Below are positions 3,001 to 37,809 of a stretch of 64,000 nucleotides of DNA, piece by piece. The translations under genes and the position numbers were made by a program. The stretch comes from the human T2T-CHM13v2.0 reference genome, Homo sapiens. The DNA lies in the NCBI RefSeq assembly GCF_009914755.1, contig NC_060939.1; one strand, 5' to 3'. Every line of letters begins with the position of its first letter. Positions within the stretch are counted from its first letter, which is position 1. Under the pieces are notes generated by a model. That model made no database searches. It saw only the letters and a program-made list of their open reading frames with translations, and was not told where the DNA came from.

Positions 3001-5718
3001 AGTGCACATGGAGATGTTCTGTCCCCCACAGTGTCTGAGCCCTCTGACTTCCTTTCTTCCCCATCAACTGGCAACATTTTCTTTTCTGCCTATCTTGGAC
3101 CTTTTGTCCCATAACTCCTTTGTGCCAACTTCTCTCATGGTTCTTATCTCCCCACCATCCCATCCTGGGGCCCCTTCAGTGACTCCTGATGGCAAGTGGC
3201 TGTTCTCATTGTCCTGGTTTCCCCCTGAGACTGGGGATGAGGAAAATCAAACCATATCCTGGGTGTCCTGAGTGTTTACAGCAGGCCATGTACTAGGGAT
3301 TAACATAAAAACAACAATAACAAATCTCATTTAAACTTCACAAATGGAAGTGAAACAATAACACCTCTATTATACAGATGTGAAAAGAGAGGCCCGATGA
3401 GGTCTAGCAACTTGCCCTAAATCATATCCCTAGCAGAGCAGATGGAGAGGCAGGATTCAAACCCAGAATTCCTTTTTTTTTTTTTTTCTTTGAGACAGAG
3501 TCTTGCTCTGTCACCAGGCTGGAGTGCAGTGGCATAATCTTGGCTACTGCAAGCTCCACCTCCCAGGTTCACACCATTCTCTTGCCTCAGCCTTCTGAGT
3601 AGCTGGGACTACAGGCACACGCCACCACGCTTGGCTAATGTTTTGTATTTTTAGTAGAGACAGGGTTTCACCGTGTTAACCAGGATGGTCTCGATCTCCT
3701 GACCTCATGATCCGCCTGCCTTGGCCTCCCAAAGTGCTAGGATTACAGGCGTGGGCCACCACACCCGGCTAAAGCCAGAATTCTTAACCAGTACCCAGCA
3801 GTCCATCCACAATCTTAAGAATTACCCTCTATTGCCCCTTGGGCCCCCTGTCCCCAGAAGCCTGGTCAGCCAAGACTCACATCCCTAGGTGGCTGGCAAC
3901 CACCAGAAGTGGCTTTCTCAGGGATACTGCCATTTGTTTTCCTGTTCCTGTTCGCTCCTGCTGGAACTCTAGGGCTGTTTTTCTGCCAATATTCTTTTAA
4001 CTGTTGGAAAGAAGAGCAGTAATACTCATGAGAACCATCAGCCCCTACAGCCACATCCTCCTTTACAGTTTTTACAAAATACACTTACACACCATCTGAT
4101 TTAATGACACCAACAACTGTACAAGGTGTTGTCACACTCATTTAGTGACTGAGAAGGATTGATATCATGGCTAGAAAAAAAAAAAGAAAAAGGCAATACT
4201 GGAACTTTGAAACTCAGTCTTCTGACTCCAAGCTCTGAGGTTTTGCCAAGAATCAGCAGCTGCCAGGGACCAAAACCAGAGGCAGAGGTAGAAAAGTAAA
4301 CATTAAGTAGGCAGGAACTGTATGCCATGTGGTTTAGAGTCATACATCCTCACACGTCTGTTAGTGTGAAGAAGTGCACCAGTACCTCTCAAACTCTTAT
4401 ATCAATGTGTCCTCATGGCAGAAGGCAGCCTTTCTCTTAAATCAGAATTTATCAGAAAGAGGACAACCCAAGCCTCATTTCAGAGAGAGGTCTGGTATAC
4501 TCTTAGAAACCTATGTGACTGTCATCCCTAAGTACATTCATGTTTTTTCTCTTGATCTCAAGAGAATCAAGGGAAACTGATGCTTCAGAAAGATGTCCCA
4601 CATTTATCCTGTGGCACTCAAAGTACCCAAGGTTGAGATAATATGAGGAAGATTCAAGGTGTCAAGTTCAGTTTCCCAAGATCTATTCCACAGAAGATGA
4701 GCAAATGTCACTTCAGAGACCACTGACTGAAGGAGAGTCTGGTCCCAGAACCATGGAGAATTAGAATATGAGGTGGAGAACTCAGAAAAAAATGTTAAAA
4801 TCTCTCTGGAAAGTAGAAGCCTGGGAGAAAACCAAACCAAACCCATTCTCTCATTGCCACCCAGAGATACTGTCAACGTTTTGAGTTCATGGGGGAAGTG
4901 TAGGCTTTTCCCACCGTCAACATCTGTAAGGGAGTGAGGCAGCCTGGAACCTCTTGCTCCTAGGTCCCATAGTCTCCATTCCCCTTCCAGCTGGAAATCT
5001 GTGCTGTGACCAGAGGAACCAGAAACGGGGTAAGAACGCTTAGGGGACTGGGTCGTAAGATCAAAGGCCAGTCTTGCAGTAACAGCAGTTACTAGGTGGA
5101 CTGTGACATCACAACATTCCACTCCTCCTGGTCGGGGGGAGGGACCATGTCAGCACCATGTCCAAGTCGCTGCTCCACGATGGGGGAGGGAAGCACAGGG
5201 TTGGGACCCAGCTCCTTGGAGACGCCAGCACAAAGAACCCAGGGAGGTCGACCTTGAGGCAGCAGGAGGGGAGGGCACAGTCTGCAGCAGGGAGTCCCAG
5301 GAGTCACCAGTCCAAAGTCACCCAGGGATGACTGGCGAGGGTGGGGCCTGGCTCCTTGGAGATGAGAGCCCAAAGAGCCCAGGGAGATCAAGCTTGGGGC
5401 GGCAGGAGATGAGGGCCCAGTAATGGAGCGGGAAGCCCCAGGACTCACCCACCCAAAGTCACCCTGGGGTGATTGGCGAGGGCAAGGACTGGGCTGCTTG
5501 CTGAAGGGGTGGGGCTGACTGACAAAACTTTGGTGGGGGTAGCCCAGAGGCACCGGGGTAGGGGGGACCAGTCCAGTGTGCCTCAGGAGTCGTATAGACT
5601 CTGGCAGGGGTCTTGTCATCAGAGGGGATCTGTGGCTGGGTTGAGGGGCTATGACCTAGTGCGTTTTTACCTTTTTCTTGGCTGCAGCCAATTTGTTGTG
5701 TTGAGTTTCTTCTGCCAT
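1..5718 (-). CDS. GOLGA8K: GOLGA8 golgin, copy 1: coding exons 1-8 and start of exon 9 (continues beyond window start)
   Basis: Exons with GT-AG sites: 5671-5718 ([16 protein letters not shown]), 3881-4000 ([15 protein letters not shown]...PPRD), 2927-2986, 2665-2745, 1773-1811, 1463-1510, 1290-1374, 1085-1194, 1-30. Frame is continuous. Family is secure; paralog letter inferred from residues ([16 protein letters not shown]) and layout. Confidence 0.85.
691..717. repeat. (CA)n microsatellite (longer paralog at 53056-53090); other CA runs at about 42550-42583 and 63231-63275
   Basis: Directly visible. Confidence 0.9.
3473..3770 (-). mobile_element. Alu (GOLGA8 intron 2; paralog at 55838-56130)
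   Basis: Alu consensus with poly-T. Confidence 0.9.
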
Positions 5719-5854
5719 CGCAGGGTGGGGAGGGAGGCAGGGTTGGGGTCACAGCAGCAAAATCTCAATGAGAACCGATCAAGGCCTCCAGTCACCTACC
5801 AGGCAGCTGTGTGACTGAGCCAGAGGAGGCGTAACCAGGGCCCCAGTAGAATGC

Positions 5855-5930
5855 GGAATAGGGGCGTGGCCTTAATGCTCCAAGCCCATTGGTCAATGAG
5901 AAAGATGAAAAGGAAAGGGGGCGTGGCCAG
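5855..5930 (-). promoter_or_regulatory. GOLGA8 copy 1 proximal promoter (two GC boxes, CCAAT box)
   Basis: GGGGCGTGGCC at 5861-5871 and 5918-5928, ATTGG at 5888-5892, about 140-210 bp upstream of the ATG; conserved in copy 2. Confidence 0.55.
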
Positions 5931-6454
5931 AAAGCAGTGTGTCCAGAGGGACCTGTGGCTCACAAGGAAAGCTGCCCATGGCAACCGCTCTCCCCACCCA
6001 CTCTAAGAGAGGGGAGAGGCCTCCCACTCTGGAAGAGAAGAGGGGCCGGCTTTTGCTTTAAAAGCTTTAAAACTTTAAAAAATATATGTGTGTATACTTT
6101 ATATATATGTGTGTCCGTGTGTGTGTATCTATGTTTTTCTCCATAGCTGTCTTCATTATCCAGCTTCTATGCAAGGTCTATGATTTTGGCCTATATTCTT
6201 CATCTTTGATTACAGTACAAAAATTACCAGTATTACCTTAACTGAGATACAGATCCTATAAAAATGGAAAATGCATAGCATGCTTGATGATTAATGAAGC
6301 AGACTATATTATCCAACATTCTAATAAGATAAAATAATCACAATGATTTCTCTTTTTTGGAAAAATGTTTCTTTTATTCTCCTACGTTTTCATTAAGATT
6401 TTTTTTTCTTAAACAAGAAACATGTCTAATATCTGTAAAAACACAAAGCTTTTG

Positions 6455-6775
<321 letters not shown>

Positions 6776-7162
6776 TTAATAGTAAGAGCAATGTGAACAA
6801 AAGTTGTAATAAAATAATTTAGAAAATACAAACTATTAAAAAATAGATTTTAAAACTTGTGCAACAAAGTCAAACAGCACCCAACGAAAATGTATACCCT
6901 TACATGTTTGTTTAAAAAGCAATTTAAATTACATTGATCCACTAAACTGGGAAAAGCAAAACAAACAAAAAGGGGGAAATAATTAAGACATAAGGAAAAA
7001 GGAAAAAGAAAAACCACTAGATTTAAAAAATAAAACTGAAGGAGGATTCTTTCAAAAGACTGAGATAATAAAACAGTCAAGCCTCTGATAAGTAATCAAG
7101 ATAAAGAAAACTTTGAAGAGAAAAGGGCATATAGCCACATGTGAATATGATGCAAAAAGTGA

Positions 7163-7518
<356 letters not shown>

Positions 7519-7939
7519 AAAGTGTTCATTTTTTTTTTTTTAAGAACCTACAGTTATGAAAACTAACTGGAAAGAAATGGGTTTTGGGAAAGATTGAGTA
7601 CATTTTTGTGATGTTCAACATTATTTTTTCTTACAGTTTTAAAAACACAATTGATATTTCTATCAATTTGACTTAAAAAAATTAAGAACTATATTAAAAT
7701 TTACCAGCAGAGGGGAGTGAAGGAACACAAAGCAACTTTCAGTTTAGGGTAATTTTTGGGCATAAACAGGGCAGCAATGTCCTCAACTCTATTCTTCTTT
7801 ATTAGCCAGTGAATCCATGTGAGCTCATTAAATGTTATTAACAGCTCAGTCTATAATGGAGGGCAAATAAAGAGACTTGTAGGTCACAAAGGTATTGACT
7901 TTTGATCAGAAGTTCCAGGGGGCGAGAAGAATGAACTAA

Positions 7940-8262
<323 letters not shown>

Positions 8263-8589
8263 CCATGCATTCTTATGGCCACATTTTTCCAGTTTGAAGT
8301 TTTATTTTCTGAGTTTCTTGAAACAATTGTGAAATCAGTTTTATTACACTAAAATCACTGTATTTTCTTATTTTTGGATATCTATTTAAAAATATTCATT
8401 TAGAATGACATTCCAGTGAAATACATTTTTAACGGCTGTTCTATGTCACAGGGATAACAATTTGACTTTCACAAACTGTATTTCAGACGTACAAGGTCTT
8501 CATTTTGATGAAGAGGGGCTGTGGGAACGTAATCTGATGCCTGTTCAAAATGTACCAGAAGTGCACGCATGTGTATGCAGGCATGAGCG

Positions 8590-8735
8590 CACACACACAC
8601 ACACACAAAACCCCATTGGGATTCCATTTAGCACACACACACACACACACACACACAAACCCCACTGGGATTCCAGTTAGCACGCACACACACACACACA
8701 GACACACACACACAGCCCATTGGGATTCCAGTTAT
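8590..8735. repeat. Compound (CA)n + CCCAYTGGGATTCCA minisatellite, 3 units
   Basis: Directly visible. Confidence 0.85.
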
Positions 8736-9111
8736 TTACCTCGAGATGGATGCTTGCTGATGTTCCAAAACCTCTTTAGGTCTTAAGGCAAAGGGCCTTT
8801 TGAATGCAAAAACCCTTACCTAGATGGAATAGACAGCAGCAATCATTGTCAACAACCTGAAATATATATTGAGTAGTTCCCATGCTAGACATTAGAGACA
8901 TAAAGATGCAGAAGAGGCCATCGCCTTAAGGGAAATAATCCCGTTCAGACAAATGAGAATACATTGTGTAATGAGCTATCTCTTATAGAAAAGATGAAGA
9001 CCAATCACCAACAGACCAGAATTCCAATATTTCACCAACTTGTAATATTATTCCAACTTCTCCTTCACATTCACTTAATTCTCATAGAGCAGTAACCAGA
9101 GTTTTGTGTTC

Positions 9112-9345
9112 TTTTTCTTTTTCTCTTCTTCTTCTTTTTTTTAAAAAACAAAGTCTTGCTTTGTCGCCCAGGGTGAAGTGCAGTTGTGCGATCTCGACTC
9201 ACTGCAGCCTCCACCTTTTGGGTTCAAGAGATTCTCATGCCTGAGCCTCTTGAGTAGCTGGGATTACAAGCATCTGCTACCATGCATGGCTAATTTTTGT
9301 CTTTTTAGTAGAGACAGGGGGTTTTATCACATTGGTCAGGCTGGT
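9112..9345 (-). mobile_element. Alu, partial
   Basis: Right arm plus part of left arm. Confidence 0.85.
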
Positions 9346-9879
9346 CAGTTTTGTGTTCTTACTAGAGAGTTCTACTCTGTTATGTCAGAGAAGGAAAATG
9401 TCTTTTGATTTCATTTCAATGAAATGTCTATTCATTAATTACATCTTCATTGGCATTTCATACAGGATTAAGACTATCTTCTTTGCCTTAATGGTATACT
9501 GTGTGCATTGTTCCTTACCCATCGTAGCAGCTTTGAAGGTCTTTTATCCATATTGGTATTTTCCAGTACCAGAAAACCAAGTCTTGAAAGAAGGACTTCA
9601 TGTCTTATCCATGGACACGCCATGGTTCCAGAATGTGTTGTCAGTTGATAAGATAGGCTTGATTTGTTACTGGTCTTAATGAGGGCTTTAGGTCAGCACA
9701 CCAGGCAATGTAGGAGTTCTGGGACTGTTAGGGAAGGCCTGATGGAGAAAATGGAATGTTAGCTGGGCTTTAAAGAGAAAGTAGAAATTAGATCACTGGG
9801 GGAGGGGGTAATGTAAAAAACATTCCAGGTAAGAGAAAGTGCTTAGCAAGTAAGAAAGCATCCAAAATATTAGAAAGTA

Positions 9880-10205
9880 CCAGGCTGGTGCAGTGGCTCA
9901 CACCTGTAATCCCAGCACTTTGGGAGGCCAAGGCAAGTGGATCACTTGAAGCCAGGTGTTCAAGACCAGCCTGGCCAATATAGTGAAACCCTGTCTCTAC
10001 TAAAAATACAAAAGTTAGCGGGGCATGGTGGCATGAACCTGCAGTCCCAGCTACTTGTGGGGCTGGGGCTGAGGCTGAGAATCTCTTGAACCTGGGAAAC
10101 AGAGGTTGCAGTGAGCCGAGATCACACCACTGCACTACAGCCTGGGCAACAGAGCGAGACTCTGTCTCAAAAAATAAATGAATAAATAAGTAAAATAAAA
10201 AATAA
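9880..10205 (+). mobile_element. AluS
   Basis: Alu consensus; no clear TSD. Confidence 0.9.
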
Positions 10206-11399
10206 AATGCTTACAGGAACTTCAACCACAATTTTTCTTGTTCACTGATAGTAAATCTAATAGAGAATTCAGGATTTATCTTACACTTGAAATTTTGTTA
10301 CTGATTACTGAAAAATTATCTACAAGCACCCAATTGTGAGTTTTACAGAAACCTGGTCTCAGGAGTTATGAACCAAAGATTCACCAGTGGACTCTGCAGA
10401 GTTTTCAGATCCCCTGAAATCATGTGCTAGGTGCTGACTGCATTTTTCTGGAGAGGCTATAATGGTTTTCATTCATCTGATTCCTCTCAAATGGTAAAAA
10501 TCACCAATGGAATGGAGCCACACATCCTGTAGCAGAAACTTCTAAAAAACCAGGAAAAAGATGAAACATGGTACCATGTACCTGCTCAGCCTCTACAGAT
10601 CCTGCTTCCGGAAGTTGAAACAAATTCTTAAAACTTGCACAACTTTTTTTCTAGTGCTTGAATGACCTCTAGTGGCTCCTTAAATTATCACAGCCAATTG
10701 CTCACAGCAGGAAATAGGTTGATGTAAAAGAAATTCACAGATTTTGCCATTAAAAGTAACGAACTAAAGAACTAAAAGGTGTGGAGAAATAATAAAATTA
10801 AGATGGCATCACAAAGGAGCACGTGGCTCAATTTCAAGTTATTATATAAGCTCCCTACTATCCAACCAAATGTAGTTCACAATACAGTGTGTGTAATTCA
10901 AAACAGTTCACCAGATAGTTCAGTACACACCATTTTTTAAATGAAATAAGTATGATTTTCCCTAAGGTCTTGCATTTCAAATTAATAAAGCATCAGCAAA
11001 CACCCATGAAGAGAACAGTACCGGAATCAAAGATACAAGAACCTCGGGAATTAACACCCACCCTTTCCTCTCAGTTGAGGCAGGACCAGGAATACAACGT
11101 TGACAAAGTATAACTGGAGTAGCAGAAATACTTTGAGAATACAAACTGGCCACAGAACTCAACCTGAGTGAGCACAAGTAACAAATATGGTCCAGGAACT
11201 GCTGGGCCAAACTCTCCAAGTGGGAGTGCAGCAGCCGCAACAGCAAGTACCAGTAGAACAAGGGCAGCACATCACCCAGGGTGACAAGCAGGTCCCAGAT
11301 TACTTCACATGCCCTCTGCCCAGTCCCTTGAGAATTCCTGCAGCAGCAAAACATACCATCTTCCAGGCACTGCTACAGGGAGTCCCAAGCATACTGATA

Positions 11400-11600
11400 C
11401 ACTTTCATTCACTTATTTCAAAATATTTGTCAGTATCTAGATATACACAAGACACTGTCTAGGCACGGGGGTGGAGTGTTGAACAAGACAATTCACAATC
11501 CCTGTTCCAATGGAGCTTGTAGTCTAGTATGGAAAGAGAAATAAATACATAAAATGCCAGGTGGTGATATATGCTGTGAAAAAGATCAAGTAGAACAAGG
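11400..11600. mobile_element. L2 3' fragment
   Basis: TTCATTCACTTATT...TGAACAAGACA...GGAGCTTGTAGTCTAG pattern. Confidence 0.6.
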
Positions 11601-13102
11601 GGTTTGGAAATTACAGGGTGCCCATAGTATTCTTTTCTATAAGTTGATCATCTCAATTCAGACTAGCTGTTCTTCAAGCACTCAATAGCCACAGTGGCTG
11701 GTGGCTACTATACTGGATAGTGGAACACATCTGAAACTATCATCCATGCCTTTTTAATTCACAATCTTTATCCTCTTTCTTTCTGAATCCTAAGAGAATT
11801 CATCCAACTGATCTTCAAATTCACTAACTCAGCTTCCTAAAGTATCCATAATCTACTGCAACTACTGAATCATTTAATTCAACAGTCATATTTTACATAT
11901 TCAGAGGCTCTTTCTTCACAGCTTCTGAGCAACAAATGCCTGCTCTGACGATGCATGAATATCCTCTAAAATCTTGGGACTTTGTCTTGGACTTTATGTT
12001 CTCTCCCATCTTCTACAGCTACTCCATCTCACTGGAGACCTTTTGCTCTGAGCCATCAGAAGGAACCCCCATTTTTAAGATCCTAAGCCTTCTCATCTTC
12101 CTGGTAATACTGCCCTATATGCTCAATCTTTTAGATAAAAATCTACTCGACACATCTCTGAGAACCAAGTTGGGTACCATCAGTAATCACACAGGTCACA
12201 ATTCATTTATTTTAGGCCCCCCAAAAAAGGAAAAAATTAGACTTAGTGGCATTTTACTAGTAGCTCAGAGATCCAACAGTTTGCAGGAAATAGAGATGTA
12301 ATTGTAAGCAAGGGAAATACAGTGAAATTATATTAATCTCCACCCAGACACTGTAAGGCCAGCTGGTATACTATCCCAGCAATTGGCTACTGCAGTGAAT
12401 GGCACAGAGAGAAAAGTTTCCAATTCCTCTTGAGGCTCCAAATACCAATTGGCTACTATAGTGGACAACACAGACATAGAAAGTTTTCCAATTCCTCTTA
12501 AAGCCCCAAATACCACACAACCAGCTTCAGCTCTACAAAATCCTCTCTCCCTTACCCTTTTTAACCTCCTTCAGGACCTCTTGCTATTTCCCCTAAAAAG
12601 CCTTGGTTCTTTTCACCTACACTGACTCTTGAGCCTCTCCCAGTTCAAGGTATAACACTCTATTACCAATAAAGTGTAATATACATTAACAGAATAGGTA
12701 GAAAGTAATCTTTCATACGAAAACACTAAAAGCCAGAAGAATTTGAATTTTGAATTATAAGCTATGATTTAATTAGGAAATACATTAGCTGTAACAAAAT
12801 GTTGGACAGACTACAAGAAAACGGGAAATGAACAAGTCTTATTCAAAAACAAATGAAATAATGATGAGTAGGGTTCACGAGCCTTGTTAACTCTGCTGTG
12901 CCATTTTAATGATGGACTACATTGTAAATGAGCTGCTATGTTTAAGCCTAAAGGTCTGTTGAGGTGATAAGTTTTTGAACAATTTCCACAATCCCACAAA
13001 GAAAAGTCAAGTGAAGGTCAAGGAAAGCCGCATGTTCTAAATTACAGAATCAACAACAGTATTTCTTGTCATTCATCACATTTCAGTCATAAAAGACATT
13101 AC

Positions 13103-13181
13103 CTCAACAACAGGTGTATTTTCCTGGAGATCAGTTTTGTGCGAAGCCAGTAAACCAATCACCCGAGCAACCTTGGCCCAT
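13103..13181 (-). pseudogene. ULK4-derived exon E (79 nt)
   Basis: tttacag|ATGGGCC...GTTGAG|gtaatg; reads WAKVARVIGLLASHKTDLQENTPVVE, resembling ULK4 RAKVAHVIGLLASHTAELQENTPVVE. Confidence 0.9.
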
Positions 13182-14928
13182 CTGTAAACGGAGAGAAAAC
13201 AGGCTCTGAAGAGAAGAGTCAGGGACTGAGGAAACTAACCCCAGCTAGTTACATTATGCAATGATGAGCATTAGATATAAGACTGTGAAATAAAAATTGA
13301 ATGTGACAGGTCAGGCCCACACTCCCCCATGTACACAGCCCAGAGAAACTCTCCCTCGTATACACAGGGAGACATGAACTGTAATGTCTGCTGTAATTCT
13401 GCAACAGCAACAAAATTTAAACAAGTTATGGTGTAATAGTAAAAGGAAAAACAAAATTTGTTAAAAGCCTTAACCAGAGAAAAGAGCAACACAGTAATTA
13501 ATCATTTTATTGCTGAGTACAGAGGCATTTGGCTAAAGGTCTCTTTTCTACTTGTTAGTAGATCAGTGAGTTTCTACGTAAGTGCTAAATATCTGAACAA
13601 TAACATATCTGTATGTATTCATTTTAAAAGAAATTTTTACAATCAAAAGTTTCTAAAATATTGTACTATTTCCATAATCACTAGTCTTAATGAGGTGTGC
13701 CTTTAGTATCCAGCAGAAAACTGAATTTGATAAATCACAATTAATAAATCACATTCAGTGTGATTTGAAAAGGTATTTCATGCAGAAAAATTAGTTTTGA
13801 TGAGAATTTTTTCTAATTGAAACAAATGGTGAGTTGATGAGAACTGCACTCATTGAGTGATGTCTGCATGTTGTCTGGAATAATCAATATGTACCTTAGT
13901 CAGCTTTTATTTTTTACCTTCTTAAAATAAACCTATGTGGCACCCATGGAGGAAAACAAATCAGACTCAGAGAAGTACTTCAGGGAAAATGTCTGCGTTA
14001 TCACAACTCTAACATACAGAAATAATTCTTAGAAATTTCAACACTTATTAAATTGCCCATTAAAATTTCTTAACATATACAAATTAAAGAAGACCTAGGC
14101 AATTGTAGAACTAGCATCCTACCTCTGAATAAAAAGATTATAGTTTAAAAGTAATCATTTTGAAAAATATCTGTAGGATAATTGGAAAAGCCATCCTCCC
14201 ACCACAACCCCCCAAGTAGCTGGGACTACAGGCGTGCACCACCACGCTCAGCTAATTTTTTTACTTTTTGTAGAGATGGGGTCTCGCTATGATGCCCAGG
14301 CTGGCCTTGAGCTCCTGACAAACAATCCTCCCATCTCAGCCTCCCAAACTGCTGCGATTACAGGTCTGAGCCACTGCACCTGCCTGTCTATCTCTTTTCA
14401 AAGACAAGCTCAAAATACTTTTGAAACACTGAACCATTTTTCAATCTATAAAAGTAAATAATGGCTACCAGATTTAATCAATGGAAATAAAAATGTATCA
14501 ACAAGCCAATTATTTTCCCTAATATGACCAAAACAATTCCTATTAGAACAAAAGAAAACACACTACCTAAAAACCCTATACTTTTAAAATAGAAACTTTA
14601 AATAGCTTATGAATAGTCACTTTTTACCAAAATCCTAAATACAAGTACCACATGCCCCATAGACAACACCCTCACAGTACAGGTTCCTTCTCAAAATTCA
14701 GGTTTTCTCAGGTCACCACTCCAGGTGCCCCCAGTGACTTGACACTGTACCTCAGAACCAACCCATCTCCATGACAGCATCTAAGGCACCACTGTCTACC
14801 AAACCTTCGTGCACTGACAAATGTCCCACATCTGCACTGTTCAATCCAGTATCCACTAGACACATGACTATCAAGCACATAATATATGACACATGCAAGT
14901 GAGGAACAACAAATTTTATTCAAATTAA

Positions 14929-15216
<288 letters not shown>

Positions 15217-16459: not shown

Positions 16460-17030
<571 letters not shown>

Positions 17031-18028
17031 CTATTTTTTTTAGAGTGAGTCTCTAAAAATAATAATAATAAAAAATACATAAAAGAAACAAAAGGAAAAA
17101 TAAAAGGGAAAGGGAAAGAAATAAAGCATCCGTAAATCACAATCGTGTAAGTAACACAGATGCAAACTTATGAGATATTCTCTGTCTTTAATGATTGCAC
17201 ACTGAACACTTGACACTCACTTTTCTGAACCCTCTAGAGTCTCTAAAATACAAGCTCTTTTTATTAAATGATAATTGGAAACAAAAAGGAGGGCTAAAAG
17301 TGGACTAGAAAGTTTGAGAAAATCTCAGATGACATGCACAAATAGAATTAAGACTGACAGAGAATCAACAAAGGAATCCCCTGTCTAAGAACCACAGGTA
17401 GACAGACGTTCCCAAGGAAGCCTCAGGGACTTGGAATAAACAAAGACAAAAAGAAAGAATGAGCCACAGGACAATAATCAGATTAAACAACTGCACAAGG
17501 AAAAATTGTGTCCTTGTACAAGGAACAGCAGAGCCAATCAGGTCCTGTCTCTTTTCCGTCTCCCTTCCCTGGTACACAGAAGAAACCCTGCAGCCCTGGC
17601 CTCCTGGGTAAATGTGGAAAATCATTCCTACAGTGAGCAATCCACCTTGCTCACTGGATGGATGGATGTGGGAAGCAGCAACTGTGGTCCTCCAGATACC
17701 GAAGCGGGGAAGGGAATAAATGAGGAAAGCCAGTTCCACTGCAAAGAAAAACCCACCCTGGCAATTGCAGAGGCCTCCAGCCTGCCTATCTGATCTTCAG
17801 CCAGCTGGAATCCCAAATTAAAGTCAACCAGTCAACAGGCCTCACCTACCCACATACCAGCCCTTTCTTTAAAGGAGAAGCTATTGGAGAAAGAGACTTA
17901 GGCAAGAATAAAGGAAACTCATATTGCCAACTTCTATACCAATCAATTTAATCATTTATTCATAATATAAATGAAGAACCAGAGATCACCAGGCATTTGA
18001 GAAATAAACAGCATTAAAAAGCAGGACC

Positions 18029-18419
<391 letters not shown>

Positions 18420-18744
18420 TCAAAGTCCAGGTTCCAGGCTTATATTATATAATCCTAATGTTTAGCCTTAAATATTAATAACAATATTTAATTCTAAATT
18501 CTGCTCCAAGACGAGGATTTTTATAATCCTAATATTTATCCTCAAATTCAAAAGTATATTATACACCAAATATAGGCAGCTAGGAAAAAGGACCAATCAG
18601 AGAAAAAGAAAATGAACAAAAACTTTCAAATATGATTGTTGAAATTAAAAAATTAACTGGAAATCCTAAATAATAAAATGAGTGGGGATAAATATCAAGT
18701 TTGAGAGCTCAAAGATAAAGTCAAGGAAGAGCAATAAAAGAAGA

Positions 18745-19510
18745 AAGTTTGCATGGACACAAAGAGGGAACAATCGACACGGGGGCCTATTTAGGGTGGA
18801 GGGTGGGAGGAGGGAGAGGATCAGAAAAAATAACAATTGGTCCTTACCAAGCTTAGTGCCTGGGTGACCAAATAATTCATACAACAAACCCCCATAACAT
18901 GAGTTCACCTATATAACAAACCTGCATGTGTACCCCTGAACCTAAAATAAAAGTTTAACAAAGAGACTTTGGCAGTTCTTCAAAAGGTTCAACACAGAGT
19001 TACCATTTTATCCAGCAATCTCACCACTGTAGGAGAAATAAAAACGTATATGTTCACACAAAACCCTGTGGACAAATGTTCAGAGCACCATTATTCATAA
19101 TAGCCAAATGTGGAAACAACCCCAAATGTCCATCAAGACCACATAAGCAAAATGTGGAATAGCCATACAAAGATTATTCAGCTAGAAAAAGAATGAAGTA
19201 CTCACACATTCCACCATACGGAGGAACCTTGAAAACATTATGCTAAATGACAGAAGCTAGACACAAAAGGCCACACACTGTATGATTCCATTTATATGAA
19301 ATATCAAGAATAGCAAATCAGCTGACAAGAAGTAGATTAGTTGTTGCCAGGGGTTGGAGAAGAATGGGTACTGGGTTTCACTGGGTGAGAAAACTGTTCT
19401 GAAATTAGATAGTGGCGATGGTTGAACAGTTTTCAATATACTGACACCTACTGAACTGTACACATTAAAATGGTGAATTTTATGGTATGTGAATTATATC
19501 TCAATAAACA
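18745..19510 (+). mobile_element. Old L1 3' fragments (L1PA/L1M)
   Basis: L1 3' UTR motifs AACAAACCTGCATGTGTACCCCTGAACCTAAAATAAAAG and GAATTATATCTCAATAAA. Confidence 0.8.
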
Positions 19511-19629
19511 AGAGCAAGTGAGAAAGCAAAAGAAAATTTGAAAGAAGAGTCAAGAGACACAAACTCCCACACCCATCCTGTAGGGGTTTCAGGAACAGAA
19601 AAAGGGTGAAATAGAGAGGAAGAAATCTA

Positions 19630-20145
<516 letters not shown>

Positions 20146-20312
20146 GCAAATTAGTAAAATGAAATTCCTAGAGACAATCTAGTAAAATTTACAGGCCTGG
20201 AATAAAAAGAAAAGCTAACTCAAACAAGACCTACAAAATAGGGAGGAAAAAAGAAGGTAAGGTTGACTCCCAAGTCCTACAGAGCTACAGTTAGTAAAGA
20301 GAAGACAGCTCA

Positions 20313-20753
<441 letters not shown>

Positions 20754-20999
20754 TCAACATCACTAGTCACAAAATACAAATCAAACCCATGAGATACTAA
20801 CTTCACACCCATCAGGTGTGAAAACACTAATGTTCATAGCAGCATTGTTCACAATAGCCAAAAGATATAAACAAGCCAGTGCCCAACAACAAATGAAAAG
20901 ATAAACTGTGGTATATTACATACAAAGGGATATTATTCAGCCTTAAAAAGGAATGAAATGCTGACACATGTTAGTTACAACATGGATAAACCTTGCAAA

Positions 21000-21499
21000 T
21001 GAAACCAGCCCAATTGTCCTATAGAACTGATGTTTACAGTCTTTTAAAATAAAGATAGAAATTGACCCTCCCAGTCTTAAAACTTGAGAAAGTTACATTT
21101 GTCTTATCTGAGTTCCTTTCTTGGGAAACCAACCATCAGGCCTCCCAGATAGTTATCAAGGAACTGAAACTTACCAGATCACCACATCTGGACCATAAGA
21201 CACCAGACCACCTCACCCATCACAATTGCCTAACCAACTACCTGCTTCCTGTCGACCAACTCCTCTCCCTCACCCTTCCCTAACTCCTGTTTTCCCATAC
21301 GTGGTTACATTTCTTCCCTGCTAAATAAACCCGTGGTTTTAGTCAGTCGAGGAGACAAATTTGAGATTGATCTCCCATCTCCTTAGCTGCAGCACCCAAT
21401 TGAAGCCTTCTTCCCTAGCAACACTCATCGTCTCCGTGATTGGCTTTCTGCGCTGTGAGCAACAGGACCTAGACCAAACCCCTCGATGTTTCAGTAGCA
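21000..21499 (+). mobile_element. Solo ERV1 LTR (LTR26-like) inserted in an old L1 (20682-21750)
   Basis: TGAAACC...GTAGCA termini, about 500 bp, L1 sequence on both sides. Confidence 0.7.
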
Positions 21500-23036
21500 A
21501 TATGAGGTACTCACCATAAGAAAATTTACCAAGATAGAATAAGTAGAGTATAGGTTACCAGGACTGGGGAAGGGAAAGGAAAGGGGAAGTTATGTTTAAC
21601 GGGTAAAGAGCTTCTGTTCAAGATGACGAAAAAGTTCTGGAAATGAATAGTGGTGATGGTTACACAACAATGGGAATGAACTAAATGTCACTGTACACAT
21701 AAAAATAGCTAAAATGGAACATTTTAAATTATGTGTAATTTACAAGTAACACATTTTAAAGTTACAGTATTACACTATTACTATATATGAATTATACCTC
21801 ATAAAGTTGATTGGCAAGGATAAAAGGATATACAATTTGATAAATACTCAACGTTGGAAGTTCTAACAAAAGACATTTTAAACACATTGACTGGGATTAT
21901 CTATTGATACAATGTTTTTTTAAGAGTATTTCAGCAATTTTTCAGAAGTCACAAAGATATTTACTGCCTTCTACCCATTTGTTCTAGTTCTATGAATCTT
22001 TCCTAAAGGGAAAAAGAAAAAGCGGGCACGAAGATTTAATCTCAAAAATGTTCATCAAAATGTTGTTTACAACATTATAATACTATCCAAAAATAGTAAA
22101 CAAAATGATCAGATATTCACAACATATAAAACGTTTACCTTAAGTATTATGTATTTTATTTTAAAATGTTGATAACATTTAAAATACATAATATATATGT
22201 TATGGGGGAAAACAAACATAAAAAACTATATCATGTGATTCTAATTTTTTATAAGCAAAACAAAACTAAGTATCTACTTCAATAATAATTATCTCCCAGA
22301 CTAAGTTAAGGACCCTTTATCATATGCTATCAAGGTAATATAACCTGAGGTCAGAGAAAACCTCGCTGGAAGTGGCTTTGGATGGAGAAAGAGAATAAAA
22401 GAAGATTCCTACCAGAGAACTTGTCTACCTCAGTATCATTTTATTCAAATTAAAACTGTTTTACAATCAAACCTCAATTTTTAACAGTGGGGGAAAAAAC
22501 AGTATGTGTTAATTTTAGTATCCAAGGGGATACTAGAACCATTCTCCTGGCTGATACAGAGGGATGACTGTTCTCGGAAATGATTTGGAATGTCTGTCTG
22601 AAAATGTCAGCAGGGAGCACCCCATTCAGGTATATAACACGTTTTAAATAAAAGTGTTTAAATACATATTTCATTGATTCATTTTTAATGAGCATACCAT
22701 AAGCCTTCTCAAAGTATTAAATGCTCAACCATTACCTAAAAATCCTACTTTCTATTACCAGATTTTACTTTGCGAGAGTAACATTAGAAGACGTATAATA
22801 AGAATTACCCTTATTATTAAACATTTTCTAAACTCCTATTGTTTCACCCATATTTCACCAGCATAGAAGAATAATTATTATACCACTGCCACAATTCACA
22901 AAATCCTTTCACCTCCGTTTTTTCATGTGCCTGTCCTAACAATCATGAGATAAGCAAGCTTCGTGATAATAACTACAACTTCTACAACCCCAACCCCACT
23001 GTCAATGAAATACCCACTAAGAATCAGGCACTATAC

Positions 23037-23333
<297 letters not shown>

Positions 23334-24231
23334 TCACATATTTACCACATTCAAAGTTGAATAATTACCAAAAATCTATGAAGTAGTTATCCCATCCCAA
23401 TTTTACAGATGAGGAAACTGCGGCTCAGCAATTAAAGTAATTGGCCCAGAAAGCAGATCTTTGATCCACACCCAGGTCTGTCTGAATCCTAAACCTATGC
23501 CATTTCCTTGTCCCACCCACACTCCCCAGGAAACAGAGATTGAGAAAAAGATAATCATTTGGCCAAGTCTTATAGGCAACAGGAACCCAGAGCCTTCTAA
23601 CACTTGATCTACGGTGCTTTCCACCTGGTATGTTGCTTCTATAAAAAGTAAGGACACTTCCTTCCATCGGGAGTTTATAAATCATAATTAATCTCAGATT
23701 ATAAATAACATCATAGGGAAGCTATGTGCTACATAGGGACAGATAAGGGTGCCCAAGGGAAACTTTGAGGAAGTATAACTAAATTAATACACAGGGATCA
23801 GGGTTGAAGTATTTTATAACCAATACTCAAAACAGTAACAGTTAGCCTGGCGCAGTGGCTCACGTCTGTAGTCCTAACACTTTGGGAGTCAGAGATGGGA
23901 GAATCACTTGAGCCCAGGAGTTGGAAACCAGCCTGGGCAACATAGTGAGAGACCTTGTCTCTACGAAAATAAAAAAACAACAACAGTTAATAAAGTTTCC
24001 AGGAGTAGCTTAGATAATCCCAGAATCGTATCTATATTAGGAGAAGGGCTATTTTTAAATATTCTAAAGTTTATAATTGGAATGCCCATAAAAATTGCCT
24101 ATGAGTAGATTCATCATTACATCAGAAAAATTTATGATAATTACTTAGGACTCTGCTTTTGATAAATATGTATGCTGTAACTACTTAATAAAACCATGAG
24201 AAATAATTTTTAAAATGTAAATGTTACTTAC

Positions 24232-24278
24232 ATATCGCAGTTTGCAGCTATCCACAAATGCTGGATTAGCAATTGGAA
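24232..24278 (-). pseudogene. FAM7A exon A (47 nt)
   Basis: ttctag|TTCCAATTG...GCGATAT|gtaagt; FQLLIQHLWIAANCD(I). Confidence 0.92.
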
Positions 24279-24955
24279 CTAGAATAAAAAATGTAAATGT
24301 AAAAAAAGAAAAAATTAAAATATTTAAGTCATGAAACACAGAAAGTGACAGCAAAGTTAAAAACTCAGATCTTTATAAAAAGGAAATTTATACTGTACAC
24401 CAAAAATGATATTTGCTAAATTACAAAGGCACTTGTATATGAATAAGATTAAAATAAAAACTAAGAACAGTACTTTTAGTTTCTCCTACCACTTTATATT
24501 CTCTAAATGACAGCCCTTACCTGATAGACACACGCCAACTATCAAAAAAAGCAATCTTAATACCATCCTGGAAGCAAGTGAACTTACATTTTTTTCAAGC
24601 CAATTCCCAAATGAGGGCCCACTACAGAAAACACCTCCGAACCACTGTAATTCCTTTCTGAGGATGACTCCAAACACTCTGCCAATCGATGCTAAACATG
24701 AGCCAAAAGAAACAAAAAAACTCTGACAAATTCCCATGAGCTTACCAATGGACCAAGATTGTCCAAAAAGTAATATTCCCAGAGGATAGGAAAAAAATGT
24801 CTTAGAGGGTTGATGTCTGCCTTCAATGTCACAGCAGAAACCTTGCAGTTTACCAGATGACCCAGTAAAGGAACCAACACCCACAACCCATTCCACATGG
24901 GCAGTTAATTCCAGTCACTGATGAGAAGGGAAAAGGTCTGTCTTATGATATCACA

Positions 24956-25306
<351 letters not shown>

Positions 25307-25578
25307 TGATTTCACATATTTTTTAAAAATCTTACAAGTTAACATAAAATGGAAACCTGAGTATTACAAACAACAACAACAACAAAAAGTTCAAAATCAC
25401 CGTCTACTCTTATCTACTTTAAGACGTAAGGATTAAGCAGAGGATAATTTGCATAAACCTAAAATCGTGATAAATCAGTTTTTTCATGGTAGTTAAATCA
25501 AATTGCTATTTTAGCACTTGTTTGAGCCTCTATAAAAAACATAAATTTAAATGCATAAGTCATGTCACAGAGGCCTAC

Positions 25579-25760
25579 CAGCGGGGAAAGGAGGAGCCTG
25601 GTGGCCACCTCCTGGTGACCAGCCACCACTCACAAACAGCAAAGGAGATTAAGCTTGGCTCAGGAGGTCCCCGAGCTCTTCTCACTGGAGTCGATCTGCG
25701 AGCACACTTGTTACAAAAAGTCATTCCAATCTTGGTCTTTCAGAAATTATAACTTATCCA
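25579..25760 (-). pseudogene. Dead ULK4 exon (182 nt; acceptor AG mutated to AA, four stops)
   Basis: ggcaa|TGGATAAG...CCGCTG|gtaggc; reads DKL*FLKDQDWNDFL*QVCSQIDSSEKSSGTS*AKLNLLCCL*VVAGHQEVATRLLLSPL, matching the ULK4 segment between exons B and A. Confidence 0.88.
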
Positions 25761-27194
25761 TTGCCAAGGAAAGAAAATAACAAAAGTATGATGATGAGAA
25801 AAACAACTGCTGGAAACATTACATGAGAAATAAACACAGAGTTACGACAGCTAAGATGAGGACAAAGAAAACATTACTCTGTCAACACCAAAAATACTCC
25901 AAAGATGACACTACTTCTATTTGTCCTTTTATATTCCTCATCTCTTTATCTATCCATGGAAACTTTTTAAACACTTCAATGGAAAACTATGCTTTCAAAC
26001 CAAGCAGATGTCTAAAGCAGAATTGTCTCACAACCTAGATTATAACAAAATGCAAAGTTCAATACAACTGGAGTAAAAGACAAAAAAGCCTTTGTATAAA
26101 TAAATCAACTCTCAGATATTGAGAAAAGCACAAACCACACAGTTATTAAAAAGTTCCAATGAAATTACTGTAAAAAAATAACGAGGATAACATGATAGCT
26201 AAAATCACCTGAAATTCCTACCTCCAAATCCCTATAAAAAAAGGGCAAAATCTAGGAAATGTGATACTCCCTAAAATTTTTTGCTAACATGTTTTTGCTG
26301 ATCTCAATCTTTAGACAAAGAAATTGTAAATATAATTTCCTAAGTAACTCAAAGAAGAAAAAGGAAATAGTATTTCCCAATAATAATTCTCTAGGTTTGC
26401 ATAAATAGACCTACTTGGCACTGAAAGCACTATTAATATTTTGCTTCACTTTGGTCTTTCAAAAACGTCCTTCTACACAGGTTTTTTTGGTTGTTTTTAT
26501 CACTAATTAAGTTGACTGATATAAACCCTTAGCTGGTTTATTTAAACCTAAATATATTTTAAATTTACTTCAAATCATAGATTCTACTCTAGCCACAATG
26601 AATAATTTTCCCCAAATTGAGTTTAACAGCTTAAAATATAATTTGTTAAAAAAAAAAAGTTTAAGGTATGTAAAAATTTCTGACTTTCACCGTAAATAAG
26701 ATTTTCATTAGCTCAACAGAAATGTAATAATTATCCCTTAAGTATCTCCACTCCCACACCATCTCCACAGTCATGAACCACCTAGTCCCGTTCTCAAATG
26801 TCCTGGTCCCGCCAATAGAATCCCAATCCTTCCTTGTTGTCCCCAACCCTGTGCACCTACACCTGCCATAAATGGTGGAAATTCAACCAGCTCTATGAAC
26901 GGAAGGGAGGAGGCCCCCCACCCACTCTACAGGAAAACTTGCCCAGATCTACAGGAACCTCCCCACTCACAAGAGGACAGGGCAGCCCAGACTCAGCTGA
27001 GAAATGTCAACAGCTGGCACAAATGAATTACAGATTATTTACAATTCACATAACACTGACCCAAGAATATAACCAATTGTCAAGACAAAATAAATTTAGT
27101 TGTTCACATACAAATATTCCATTTGTGAATAAATTTCATATTCGTATCTGTATACAGACAGTCTACATGTTCGATAACTCCTTTATGATCCTAC

Positions 27195-27258
27195 CTGAAA
27201 ATGCTGGTAGATGCAATATTTTTGCATCAAATTTAACCGATGGTGGTTGTTTCATTAT
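27195..27258 (-). pseudogene. FAM7A exon B (64 nt)
   Basis: cag|ATAATGAAAC...TTTTCAG|gtagga; ULK4 frame IMKQPPSVKFDAKILHLPAFS; alternative-frame ATG at 27227 gives MQKYCIYQHFQ. Confidence 0.92.
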
Positions 27259-28685: not shown

Positions 28686-29206
28686 CTATATGAGACTAAG
28701 GAGGCATAACAACTAACTGTAATGTGGGATCCTGGAACAAAAAAAAAGAGGACATTAGAGGCAACCGGTAAAATTCAAATGCATTTGGTAGTTAACAGCA
28801 CTATTCTCATGTTTTATTTTTCCCTTTTCAGGAAGAATTCGAAAGGAGCAGTCAGGGTATTGCATGCCATCATTACACAGAGATATCAATCAAGTATCAT
28901 GCAACTCCAACTACCACATTCTACTGCCCTCCAAAAGGAGGAACAGGTAAGGATTATCCCGCCTGACTAACACTATACCAATGTTAATTCCCAGGTTTTG
29001 CTAACTATACTATAGACCTATAAGATGTGAACATTAAGAGCAGCTGGGCAAAAGCTATACAGGAGTTCTCAACTATTTTTTAATCTTTTCTCTAAAAGTA
29101 GTTTAGAATTAAAAGTTAAACACAAAAATTTCCACTGATGAAGGCTTCCCATAAACTATCAAATATGGTTATAAGAGGAAAAAACGAAACACAGAATATT
29201 GTGTAA

Positions 29207-30739: not shown

Positions 30740-30864
30740 TTGTCAGAGTGCTTTCTGCACCTTTGGATTGTCAATAATGGGGGTGACAACAAGATCTGAG
30801 TCGTGTAGATAAGCTCTCTCATCTGGGATTCCAGGTCCTGCTGACTCAGGTGTCCACTTGTAAT
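30740..30864 (-). pseudogene. FAM7A exon C (125 nt)
   Basis: tttcag|ATTACAAGT...CTGACAA|gtgagt; ITSGHLSQQDLESQMRELIYT, then a 1-nt frameshift before DSDLVVTPIIDNPK. Confidence 0.9.
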
Positions 30865-37730: not shown

Positions 37731-37734
37731 ACCA

Positions 37735-37738
<4 letters not shown>

Positions 37739-37805
<67 letters not shown>
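37739..37805. repeat. (TG)33 microsatellite
   Basis: Perfect TG run. Confidence 0.97.

Positions 37806-37809
<4 letters not shown>

What the first reader, a model, noticed from the sequence alone, without database searches (positions are those of the whole stretch)
3881..27227. Possible FAM7A-GOLGA8 in-frame fusion, a golgin analogue of CHRFAM7A
Seen: the ATG at 27227 in exon B (33 nt) + exon A (47 nt) + exon E (79 nt) gives an uninterrupted 53-codon frame, MQKYCIYQHFQFQLLIQHLWIAANCDIWAKVARVIGLLASHKTDLQENTPVVE, ending at a phase-0 donor (13103). I could find no following ULK4 exon. The next annotated-type coding acceptor on this strand is GOLGA8 exon 2 (4000), also phase 0 (LKEYWQ...). Splicing E to exon 2 would replace the 16-aa golgin N-terminus with the FAM7A peptide. 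Exon D is also phase 0, so D>A>E>exon2 or D>exon2 stay in frame too. Known: the first 27 aa are the CHRFAM7A (dup-alpha7) N-terminus. Inference: readthrough from the CpG-island promoter could make a chimeric golgin, and FAM7A-epitope antibodies or probes may detect it. Phase match alone has about a 1-in-3 chance prior.
Basis: partly seen in the sequence, partly recalled or inferred. Interest (0 to 1): 0.8.

Follow-up and report, generated by a model that had tools for sequence, protein, structure and literature searches.

The report
In-frame FAM7A–GOLGA8K splice possibility, unproven
A known transcribed pseudogene cassette (ULK4P1/FAM7A) lies just upstream of a golgin gene and could in principle splice into it in frame, but the frame match is inherited from the parent genes and nothing available here shows that such a hybrid RNA or protein is made.

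Summary
On the minus strand, ATG 27227-27195 (33 nt), 24278-24232 (47 nt) and 13181-13103 (79 nt) give the stated open 53-codon frame. It ends in phase 0, and GOLGA8K exon 2 (4000) starts in phase 0. The hypothetical fusion stays open through all GOLGA8K coding parts in the window.

The match carries little weight. 42 of the 53 codons are the native ULK4 reading frame of two consecutive ULK4 exons. 12 of 18 GOLGA8O introns are phase 0.

It lies 149 nt beyond the end of ULK4-derived DNA and stops the frame after 16 codons. GOLGA8K also keeps its own first exon and upstream duplicon.

The MQKY start is the sixth ATG of a D-C-B-A chain. The RefSeq chain C→79-nt exon, however, opens at its first ATG and is also in frame with exon 2.

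Three near-identical FAM7A→GOLGA8 units exist in this genome. No RNA data were reachable, and four literature searches found no report of a fusion. Verdict: real geometry, unproven and weakened interpretation, low interest.

The parts
36800..37800 (-). CpG island carrying the ULK4P1/FAM7A promoter and first exons. A (CA)n run lies at its upstream edge, about 37740-37830.
   Evidence: GC 0.70, CpG o/e 0.78, 67 CpG in 37000-37720; sequence read.
37133..37294 (-). Exon 'D'. The RefSeq short form is 37180-37133. The long form carries ATGs at 37294, 37234 and 37228. The donor at 37133 is phase 0.
   Evidence: The region has 17 genomic matches, including chr15:73.714 Mb at 72%.
30740..30864 (-). Exon 'C' (RefSeq exon 3, 125 nt). 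The ATG at 30822 is the first ATG of the RefSeq chain. It opens 54 codons that run to the 13103 donor.
   Evidence: The donor caa|gtgagt is absent in chr3 ULK4, which has caactgagt.
27195..27258 (-). Exon 'B' (64 nt). The MQKY ATG is at 27227. An upstream out-of-frame ATG lies at 27255.
   Evidence: Identical in 3 of 5 other genomic copies.
25579..25760 (-). Dead homologue of a 182-nt ULK4 exon that lies between B and A in the parent. The acceptor is AG>AA (25762-25761), there are four in-frame stops, and the donor is gtaggc.
24232..24278 (-). Exon 'A' (47 nt), read in the native ULK4 frame.
13103..13181 (-). It is the last ULK4-derived exon, is read in the native ULK4 frame, and has an orphan phase-0 donor gag|gtaatg.
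9887..9887 (.). Downstream end of the ULK4 (chr3) homology, at an Alu.
   Evidence: The divergent copy L027 is collinear for only 3303 nt, ending at the same point.
9132..9738 (-). It adds 16 in-frame codons and then TAA at 9690-9688. Its 3' end sits at the A-rich tail of a sense Alu.
   Evidence: The unique part has 3 genomic matches, all in FAM7A-GOLGA8 units.
7798..8345 (-). The next AATAAA hexamers on this strand (8345, 8306, 7803). These are candidate true poly(A) signals.
   Evidence: none between 11758 and 8345.
5817..7581 (-). Upstream part of the GOLGA8 duplicon. It matches the region upstream of GOLGA8O.
   Evidence: 96.7% over 1770 nt to 58174-59928.
5671..5816 (-). GOLGA8K exon 1 (CDS 5718-5671, 16 aa), in CpG-poor DNA.
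   Evidence: o/e 0.16-0.30.
3881..4000 (-). GOLGA8K exon 2, with phase-0 acceptor ttccaacag|TTAAAAG. This is the proposed fusion acceptor.

Best explanation
The stretch is the known FAM7A/ULK4P1 transcribed-pseudogene cassette lying head-to-tail in front of a complete GOLGA8K gene.

The cassette has three parts:
- a CpG-island first exon of non-ULK4 origin;
- about 21.5 kb or more of ULK4-derived DNA carrying exons C, B, a dead 182-nt exon, A and a 79-nt exon;
- a short non-ULK4 linker.

The ULK4 copy is 3'-truncated 3.2 kb after the 79-nt exon, so that exon's donor is orphaned. The annotated fate of the donor is an exapted terminal exon at 9738. That exon closes the frame after 16 codons, giving 69-70-aa ORFs.

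The open 53-codon frame is 11 off-frame codons from exon B followed by 42 codons of native ULK4 frame. Its phase-0 end is the native ULK4 exon boundary. It is in frame with GOLGA8K exon 2 because GOLGA8 introns are mostly phase 0.

The in-frame compatibility is therefore a by-product of ancestry. Any 13103>4000 junction, if it exists, is inferred to be a minor read-through product, not an established chimeric golgin.

Shown: the anatomy, the frames, the copy structure and the origin of the frames. Inferred: how the donor is used, and that there is no meaningful fusion product.
For: - Frames and splice sites were read directly.
- Chr3 ULK4 has the order C - B - 182-nt exon - A - 79-nt exon.
- The 182-nt exon has lost its acceptor (AG>AA) in 4 of 5 chr15 copies examined. 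This explains B>A splicing.
- ULK4 homology ends at 9887.
- The terminal exon 9738-9132 comes from RefSeq NR_026858.1 in the hub table. Its in-frame stop is shown.
- GOLGA8K keeps its exon 1 and 1.77 kb of GOLGA8-type upstream DNA.
- 12 of 18 GOLGA8O introns are phase 0.
- The MQKY ATG is the 6th ATG of D-C-B-A-E, with T at -3 and C at +4.
- The hub table lists no fusion model for GOLGA8K.
- No paper holds ULK4Px-GOLGA8-type terms: 0 papers.
- 29 papers name ULK4P1/2/3. 27 were listed, seen as titles and abstract starts only, and none is about a fusion.
Against: - No RNA data were examined, so absence of the junction is not shown.
- The RefSeq 3' end at 9132 abuts a genomic A-run of a sense Alu. 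No AATAAA or ATTAAA lies between 11758 and 8345. The real transcripts may therefore extend towards GOLGA8K, whose start is only 3.3 kb further.
- Multi-mapping reads in 99-100% identical duplicons are commonly discarded. A missing RefSeq model is therefore weak evidence.
- The RefSeq-supported chain x1-x2-C-79-nt exon has its first ATG in frame with GOLGA8K exon 2. Translation would not be hindered on that chain.
- Fusions of 3'-truncated duplicates with downstream genes are described as common (PMC6169893, passages).
Confidence: 0.72

Rival explanations
1. A reproducible read-through isoform exists. Transcription from the CpG island passes the weak or absent poly(A) site, skips the 9738 acceptor and GOLGA8K exon 1, and joins 13103 to 4000 at an appreciable level. 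It does so at one or more of the three units, but yields little or no protein.
For: - The two genes are on the same strand, with only 3.3 kb between the annotated end (9132) and the GOLGA8K start (5816).
- The donor is an orphan.
- There is no poly(A) hexamer in the terminal exon.
- The geometry is the usual conjoined-gene pattern of penultimate exon to second exon (my own knowledge of the conjoined-gene literature).
- ARHGAP11B isoforms read through into ULK4 duplications nearby (PMC6169893, passages).
Against: - A usable acceptor at 9738 is closer (3.4 kb against 9.1 kb) and is the one in RefSeq.
- The hub table has no fusion model.
- No literature report was found.
- AATAAA hexamers at 8345, 8306, 7803 and 6378 precede GOLGA8K.
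Confidence: 0.18
2. One reading: a translated chimeric golgin. The 16-aa GOLGA8 N-terminus is replaced by a 53-aa (B-A-79) or 54-aa (C-79) FAM7A peptide, making a functional analogue of CHRFAM7A.
For: - The frame stays open through all 8 GOLGA8K coding parts in the window: 244 or 245 aa, 0 stops.
- The same geometry holds at three loci.
- On the RefSeq chain the in-frame ATG is the first ATG.
- The positive control behaves the same way. At the CHRFAM7A-type locus, exon A joins a Cys-loop receptor exon in frame.
Against: - This needs everything in the previous rival, plus translation and stability.
- The B-A chain has five upstream ATGs and a weak start context.
- In the cited study only a small fraction (<2%) of the NBPF (NOTCH2NL) fusions maintain an ORF, and fusion transcripts of 3'-truncated duplicates 'rarely alter the ORF' (PMC6169893, passages).
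- Unlike CHRFAM7A, the partner gene is not truncated and keeps its own start.
Confidence: 0.04
3. The relevant product is a short protein of 69-70 aa made from the annotated transcript (C- or B/A-start, 79-nt exon, 16 codons of the terminal exon). It would carry a 26-42-aa fragment of a ULK4 helical repeat.
For: The ORF of 70 aa starts at the first ATG of the RefSeq chain. The 69-aa version comes from the MQKY start.
Against: RefSeq classes the transcript as non-coding (NR_). The copies are 99-100% identical, so no conservation test is possible. No protein evidence was sought or found.
Confidence: 0.04

Closest known systems
CHRFAM7A (FAM7A exons D-C-B-A fused to CHRNA7 exons 5-10)
   Same: - The 5' cassette is the same. 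Exons B and A at the CHRFAM7A-type locus (chr15:28.17 Mb) are identical to the window's, and the dead 182-nt exon is the same.
- The logic is the same: an off-frame start in B, then ULK4 exon A in its native frame, then the partner gene in its native frame (...CDI|ADERFDATF).
- The partner exons were confirmed as Neur_chan_LBD / Neur_chan_memb. All 4 ORFs submitted hit; they were picked by eye from 77 ORFs of at least 55 aa.
   Different: - In CHRFAM7A the cassette is cut 2.5 kb after exon A (collinearity with the window ends at 21690). It is joined to a 5'-truncated partner that has no promoter of its own. The fusion is therefore genomic and obligatory.
- Here the cassette is longer, with the 79-nt exon and a terminal exon.
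- The partner, GOLGA8K, is complete. A fusion would need read-through and the skipping of two exons.
3'-truncated segmental-duplication genes with exapted exons or downstream fusions (Dougherty et al. 2018, PMC6169893; e.g. ARHGAP11B long isoforms, NOTCH2NL-NBPF)
   Same: The parent gene is truncated at its 3' side (ULK4 homology ends at 9887). The last duplicated donor is spliced into non-parental sequence (RefSeq exon 9738-9132). A neighbouring gene lies on the same strand.
   Different: For those genes the fusions were seen in full-length cDNA. Here none has been seen. The paper's 5 searchable supplementary files hold no GOLGA8, ULK4 or FAM7A entry (file 1 could not be searched).
Conjoined / tandem read-through genes
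   Same: Same-strand neighbours a few kb apart. The proposed junction runs from the penultimate exon of the upstream gene to exon 2 of the downstream gene. (The pattern is taken from my own knowledge of that literature.)
   Different: Membership is defined by an observed chimeric RNA, which is lacking here.

Membership tests
CHRFAM7A-type FAM7A fusion gene | FAM7A 5' exons with the start in exon B and exon A read in frame | tested here: met
   Exons B and A are identical to those of the CHRFAM7A-type locus. The ORF is shown.
CHRFAM7A-type FAM7A fusion gene | The partner gene is 5'-truncated and genomically fused inside the FAM7A transcription unit, with no promoter or first exon of its own | tested here: not met
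   GOLGA8K keeps exon 1 (5816-5671) and 1.77 kb of GOLGA8-type upstream DNA. A FAM7A terminal exon lies in between.
CHRFAM7A-type FAM7A fusion gene | Reading-frame compatibility of the donor and the partner acceptor | tested here: met
   Phase 0 to phase 0. The frame is open for 244 aa to the window edge.
CHRFAM7A-type FAM7A fusion gene | Observed chimeric mRNA | not testable with these tools
   No RNA data. The hub RefSeq table has no such model. Literature searches found nothing.
Conjoined (read-through) gene | Same-strand neighbours with a short intergenic distance | tested here: met
   3.3 kb from 9132 to 5816, both on the minus strand (hub table).
Conjoined (read-through) gene | RNA joining exons of both genes | not testable with these tools
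   No transcript data are available.
3'-truncated duplicate with exapted terminal exon | The duplication ends inside the parent gene, downstream of a coding exon | tested here: met
   The chr3 homology blocks run from 9887 to 31395 (7 blocks of at least 400 nt at 88-92%). The chr3 segment compared ends there, so the upstream limit was not reached. No convincing next ULK4 exon was found in 19.9 kb of chr3 (19 heuristic candidates).
3'-truncated duplicate with exapted terminal exon | The last duplicated donor is spliced to non-parental sequence | tested here: met
   The RefSeq exon 9738-9132 lies outside the ULK4 homology. Its unique part is found only in the 3 FAM7A-GOLGA8 units (3 of 3 matches). 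The splice itself rests on the RefSeq record, not on data seen here.

The most novel reading that the evidence does not exclude
Three near-identical composite duplicons on 15q13 each place a CpG-island promoter and ULK4-derived exons in front of a CpG-poor GOLGA8 gene. Read-through from them would make an ape- or human-specific family of chimeric golgins. In these, the first 16 aa of the basic N-terminus are replaced by a 53-54-aa peptide that contains a native ULK4 helical fragment. That would be a second, multi-copy use of the FAM7A cassette beside CHRFAM7A. It could give GOLGA8 exons expression wherever the CpG island is active.
Probability: 0.04. Interest if true: 0.6.

Novelty: already known. 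Interest (0 to 1): 0.22.

Why it matters
If a FAM7A-GOLGA8 protein were made, three things would follow. It would be a second fusion gene built on the cassette that gave CHRFAM7A. It would sit in the 15q13.3 region whose GOLGA8 and FAM7A repeats mediate pathogenic rearrangements. And it could confound reagents aimed at FAM7A exons.

As it stands, the value of this check is mostly corrective.
- The frame match is explained by ancestry.
- An annotated terminal exon with an in-frame stop was overlooked.
- The decisive experiment is now sharply defined: count 13103>4000 against 13103>9738 junctions in long reads mapped to T2T.

By-products may help annotation of CHRFAM7A and ULK4P:
- the origin of the B>A junction, through loss of the acceptor of a 182-nt ULK4 exon;
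- a mutation-created donor for exon C;
- a likely internally primed 3' end in NR_026858.1.

Tried and rejected
- **Exon D as a GOLGA8 exon-1 copy.** I tested whether the cassette might already be a GOLGA8-ULK4 hybrid. Local alignment of 37750-36900 against the exon-1 regions of GOLGA8K and GOLGA8O scored 21 and 24, against a shuffled maximum of 29. blastn found only (CA)n matches. Rejected for these paralogues. The review's 'D and F homologous to GOLGA8B' (PMC8998457, passage) probably refers to DNA near GOLGA8B. A D-like copy at 87% lies at chr15:32.32 Mb.\n- **Crude acceptor ranking.** Of 610 AG sites between 13102 and 3800, 7 passed a strict pyrimidine filter. Neither 9738 nor 4000 was among them. 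The heuristic is therefore uninformative on splice competition, and I draw nothing from it. No MaxEnt-type model was available.\n- **A ULK4 exon between A and the 79-nt exon.** Six heuristic candidates, none convincing. Riley 2002 was not looked up (no PMC id in the reference list). The original exon nomenclature (E, F) could therefore not be checked. A search for CHRFAM7A + 'exon E' + 'exon D' found 0 papers.\n- **Genome-wide search for a retrocopy of the junction.** Not done, because it would have required typing a joined sequence.

Full report
**1. The observation**

I read the minus strand directly.

- Exon 'B' is 27258-27195 (acceptor ...ccacag|, donor |gtagga). An ATG at 27227 leaves 33 nt to the donor.
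- Exon 'A' is 24278-24232, 47 nt, with donor |gtaagt.
- The 79-nt exon is 13181-13103, with donor gag|gtaatg.
- Joined, they give 159 nt = 53 codons without a stop.
- GOLGA8K exon 1 holds 48 coding nt. Exon 2 (4000-3881) begins in phase 0 with LKEYWQ.
- Carried on by coordinates, the hypothetical fusion stays open through all eight GOLGA8K coding parts inside the window: 244 aa, 0 stops.

**2.

RefSeq NR_026858.1 (hub table) splices the 13103 donor to an acceptor at 9738 (ttttctccatcag|G). Read in the same frame, this terminal exon adds 16 codons and then TAA at 9690-9688. The ORFs are 69 aa from the MQKY start and 70 aa from the exon-C start.

The RefSeq chain skips exons B and A altogether. 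It runs 37594-37578, 37180-37133, 30864-30740, 13181-13103, 9738-9132.

On that chain the first ATG (30822, in exon C) opens 54 codons. The 'in frame with GOLGA8K exon 2' property therefore also holds for the only RefSeq-supported chain, and there it faces no upstream ATG.

On a D-C-B-A chain the MQKY ATG is the sixth ATG. It has T at -3 and C at +4. An out-of-frame ATG in good context (A at -3) lies 28 nt upstream.

**3. Where the frame comes from**

The window's own genome is searchable.

- The 79-nt exon has 5 matches: four on chr15 and one on chr3.
- Exons B and A have 6 matches each.
- Homology between the window and chr3:41.90-41.92 Mb (the ULK4 parent) runs from window 9887 to at least 31395. 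It forms 7 blocks of at least 400 nt at 88-92% identity.

On chr3, exon B is open in only one frame, and that frame is not the MQKY frame.

Between B and A, chr3 holds a 182-nt exon with good splice sites (ttctttccatggcag| ... |gtaagc). Its open frame links B to A. The parental order is therefore C - B - 182-nt exon - A - 79-nt exon. Only the 11 codons from B are off-frame.

In the window, the homologue of the 182-nt exon (25760-25579) has its acceptor changed from AG to AA and carries four in-frame stops. The same is true at the two other high-identity units and at the CHRFAM7A-type locus. The divergent fifth copy keeps CAG. This explains why B is spliced to A, and why the FAM7A start is off-frame in B yet in the native frame from A onwards.

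That the chr3 locus is ULK4 follows from the literature statement that these exons derive from ULK4 at 3p22.1 (PMC8998457, passage), and from my recollection of the ULK4 protein. No annotated ULK4 record was available to me.

**4. How much the phase match is worth**

The A>79-nt join is ancestral, not a coincidence. The phase-0 end of the 79-nt exon is the native ULK4 boundary. From the hub's coordinates, 12 of 18 GOLGA8O introns are phase 0, including the first six. A phase-0 donor placed upstream of a GOLGA8 gene would therefore be in frame with most of its acceptors. The match gives little support for function.

**5. The orphan donor and its surroundings**

- ULK4 homology stops at 9887, at an Alu, 3.2 kb after the 79-nt exon.
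- A heuristic scan of the 19.9 kb that follow the parental exon on chr3 gave 19 candidates, none convincing.
- The terminal exon begins 149 nt beyond the boundary. Its unique part occurs only three times in the genome, always in this context.
- Its annotated end (9132) abuts the A-rich tail of a sense Alu. No AATAAA or ATTAAA lies on this strand between 11758 and 8345; the next are at 8345, 8306, 7803 and 6378. I infer that the 3' end is an internal-priming artefact and that the true end lies further downstream.
- 5817-7581 is GOLGA8-duplicon DNA, 96.7% identical to the region upstream of GOLGA8O.
- GOLGA8K exon 1 follows at 5816.
- The 5' region of GOLGA8K is CpG-poor (o/e 0.16-0.30). The FAM7A start is a CpG island (GC 0.70, o/e 0.78).

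**6. Copies**

The 10 kb from the 79-nt exon to beyond GOLGA8 exon 2 are collinear with two other places:
- chr15:27.919 Mb at 99.6% identity;
- chr15:28.390 Mb at 99.2% identity.

A divergent copy at chr15:28.4526 Mb is collinear for only 3303 nt, that is, up to the ULK4 boundary.

Across the three units, exons B, A, the 79-nt exon, the 9738 acceptor and GOLGA8 exons 1-2 are identical or nearly so. The exceptions are:
- one copy has lost the upstream ATG of exon B;
- one has donor gtaaag;
- one has two substitutions in exon 2.

Whatever happens here can therefore happen at three loci. Junction reads would multi-map.

**7. Comparison with CHRFAM7A**

At chr15:28.15-28.19 Mb (minus strand), exons D, B and A are present. 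The 79-nt exon is not.

Collinearity with the window ends 2.5 kb after exon A, at window 21690. About 0.7 kb further on lies an exon with acceptor ctgtttctag|T. It joins exon A in frame (...CDI|ADERFDATF).

That exon and three further ORFs hit Neur_chan_LBD or Neur_chan_memb. All 4 ORFs submitted hit. I chose them by eye from 77 ORFs of at least 55 aa, out of 207 of at least 30 aa.

CHRFAM7A thus uses the same logic as the proposal: an off-frame start, then a native ULK4 exon, then the native partner frame. The difference is that its partner is a promoter-less gene fragment fused inside the transcription unit. GOLGA8K is a complete gene behind a terminal exon. The defining feature 'truncated, genomically fused partner' is not met here.

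**8. Literature**

- PMC8998457 (passages): FAM7A exons A, B, C, E come from ULK4; D and F are homologous to GOLGA8B.
- PMC11176066 (passages): primers in exons F, D-C, B, E were paired with a reverse primer in CHRNA7 exon 5. This suggests that the published 'exon E' lies upstream of A, and is not the 79-nt exon.
- PMC6169893 (passages): fusions of 3'-truncated duplicates with downstream sequence are 'common' but 'rarely alter the ORF'. Only a small fraction (<2%) of NBPF fusions keep an ORF. ARHGAP11B long isoforms extend into duplications of ULK4. Its 5 searchable supplementary files hold no GOLGA8, ULK4 or FAM7A term; file 1 was not searchable.
- bioRxiv 10.64898/2026.03.03.709017 (passages): FAM7A is treated as a repeat unit at 15q13.3, and Iso-Seq was used only for gene-level counts.
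- Searches for ULK4P1/2/3-GOLGA8, GOLGA8K-ULK4P1, FAM7A-GOLGA8 and ULK4P-GOLGA8 found 0 papers.
- 29 papers name ULK4P1/2/3. 27 were listed, seen as titles and abstract starts only; they are mostly CNV, methylation or expression studies.
- 5 papers name FAM7A1/2/3, none on transcripts.
- 44 papers hold at least 3 of GOLGA8, ULK4, Iso-Seq, read-through, chimeric transcript and core duplicon. 20 were listed and none reports this junction; I opened two of them.

The supplementary tables of fusion catalogues are not covered by these searches.

**9. Verdict**

It is explained by ancestry and by the phase-0 bias of GOLGA8.

The annotated fate of the donor is a terminal exon with an in-frame stop. 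The partner gene is intact. No RNA evidence could be consulted. I rate the alternatives as follows:

| Reading | Probability |
|---|---|
| By-product of ancestry, no meaningful fusion | 0.72 |
| Appreciable but unproductive read-through isoform | 0.18 |
| Translated chimeric golgin | 0.04 |
| 69-70-aa product of the annotated transcript | 0.04 |

Interest is low (0.22). The one experiment that decides the matter is cheap and is spelled out under next steps.

Noticed in passing
window 25579-25762 (-): Dead homologue of a 182-nt ULK4 coding exon between FAM7A exons B and A. The acceptor is AG>AA, there are four in-frame stops, and the donor is weakened. The same state is found in the two other high-identity units and at the CHRFAM7A-type locus. 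The divergent copy (L010) keeps the AG. This accounts for the B>A junction and for the off-frame start of the CHRFAM7A-type ORF.
   Followed up: yes
window 30740-30864 (-): The donor of FAM7A exon C (caa|gtgagt) does not exist in chr3 ULK4, which has caactgagt. The parental donor, 22 nt upstream (ccaaag|gtgcag), is still intact in the window. The exon also has a 1-nt deletion relative to chr3 that shifts the frame after ...MRELIYT.
   Followed up: partly
window 37133-37294 (-); L028 (chr15:73.7138-73.7149 Mb): The ORF of exon D aligns with an ATG-initiated frame at chr15:73.714 Mb. The D region has 17 genomic matches on chr15 and chrY at 72-100%, one of them (87%) near a GOLGA8 copy at chr15:32.32 Mb. 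From memory the 73.7-Mb locus is UBE2Q2 exon 1, which would make the FAM7A/CHRFAM7A CpG-island promoter a UBE2Q2-type promoter copy. The gene name is recalled, not tested.
   Followed up: partly
window 9132-9200 (-): The annotated 3' end of NR_026858.1 sits at the A-rich tail of a sense-oriented Alu, with no AATAAA or ATTAAA within the 607-nt exon. This is a likely internal-priming artefact, and the true poly(A) site is unknown.
   Followed up: partly
L009 (chr15:27.9056 Mb) and L010 (chr15:28.4384 Mb): Copy-specific start-codon differences in exon B. One high-identity copy has lost the upstream out-of-frame ATG (ATAAGG). The divergent copy has lost the MQKY ATG (GATCC). Both could serve as paralogue markers.
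   Followed up: no
window 27224-27232 (-): Exon B of all chr15 copies carries a 3-nt insertion (TCG) relative to chr3 ULK4.
   Followed up: no
window 28837-28969 (-): The hub table lists a U8 snoRNA model inside the intron between exons C and B. I did not examine it.
   Followed up: no
window 4170 and 6028 (-): Two very pyrimidine-rich AG sites. One is 170 nt upstream of GOLGA8K exon 2 (a 21-nt pyrimidine run). The other is about 210 nt upstream of the GOLGA8K start. Both could compete as acceptors in any read-through RNA.
   Followed up: no
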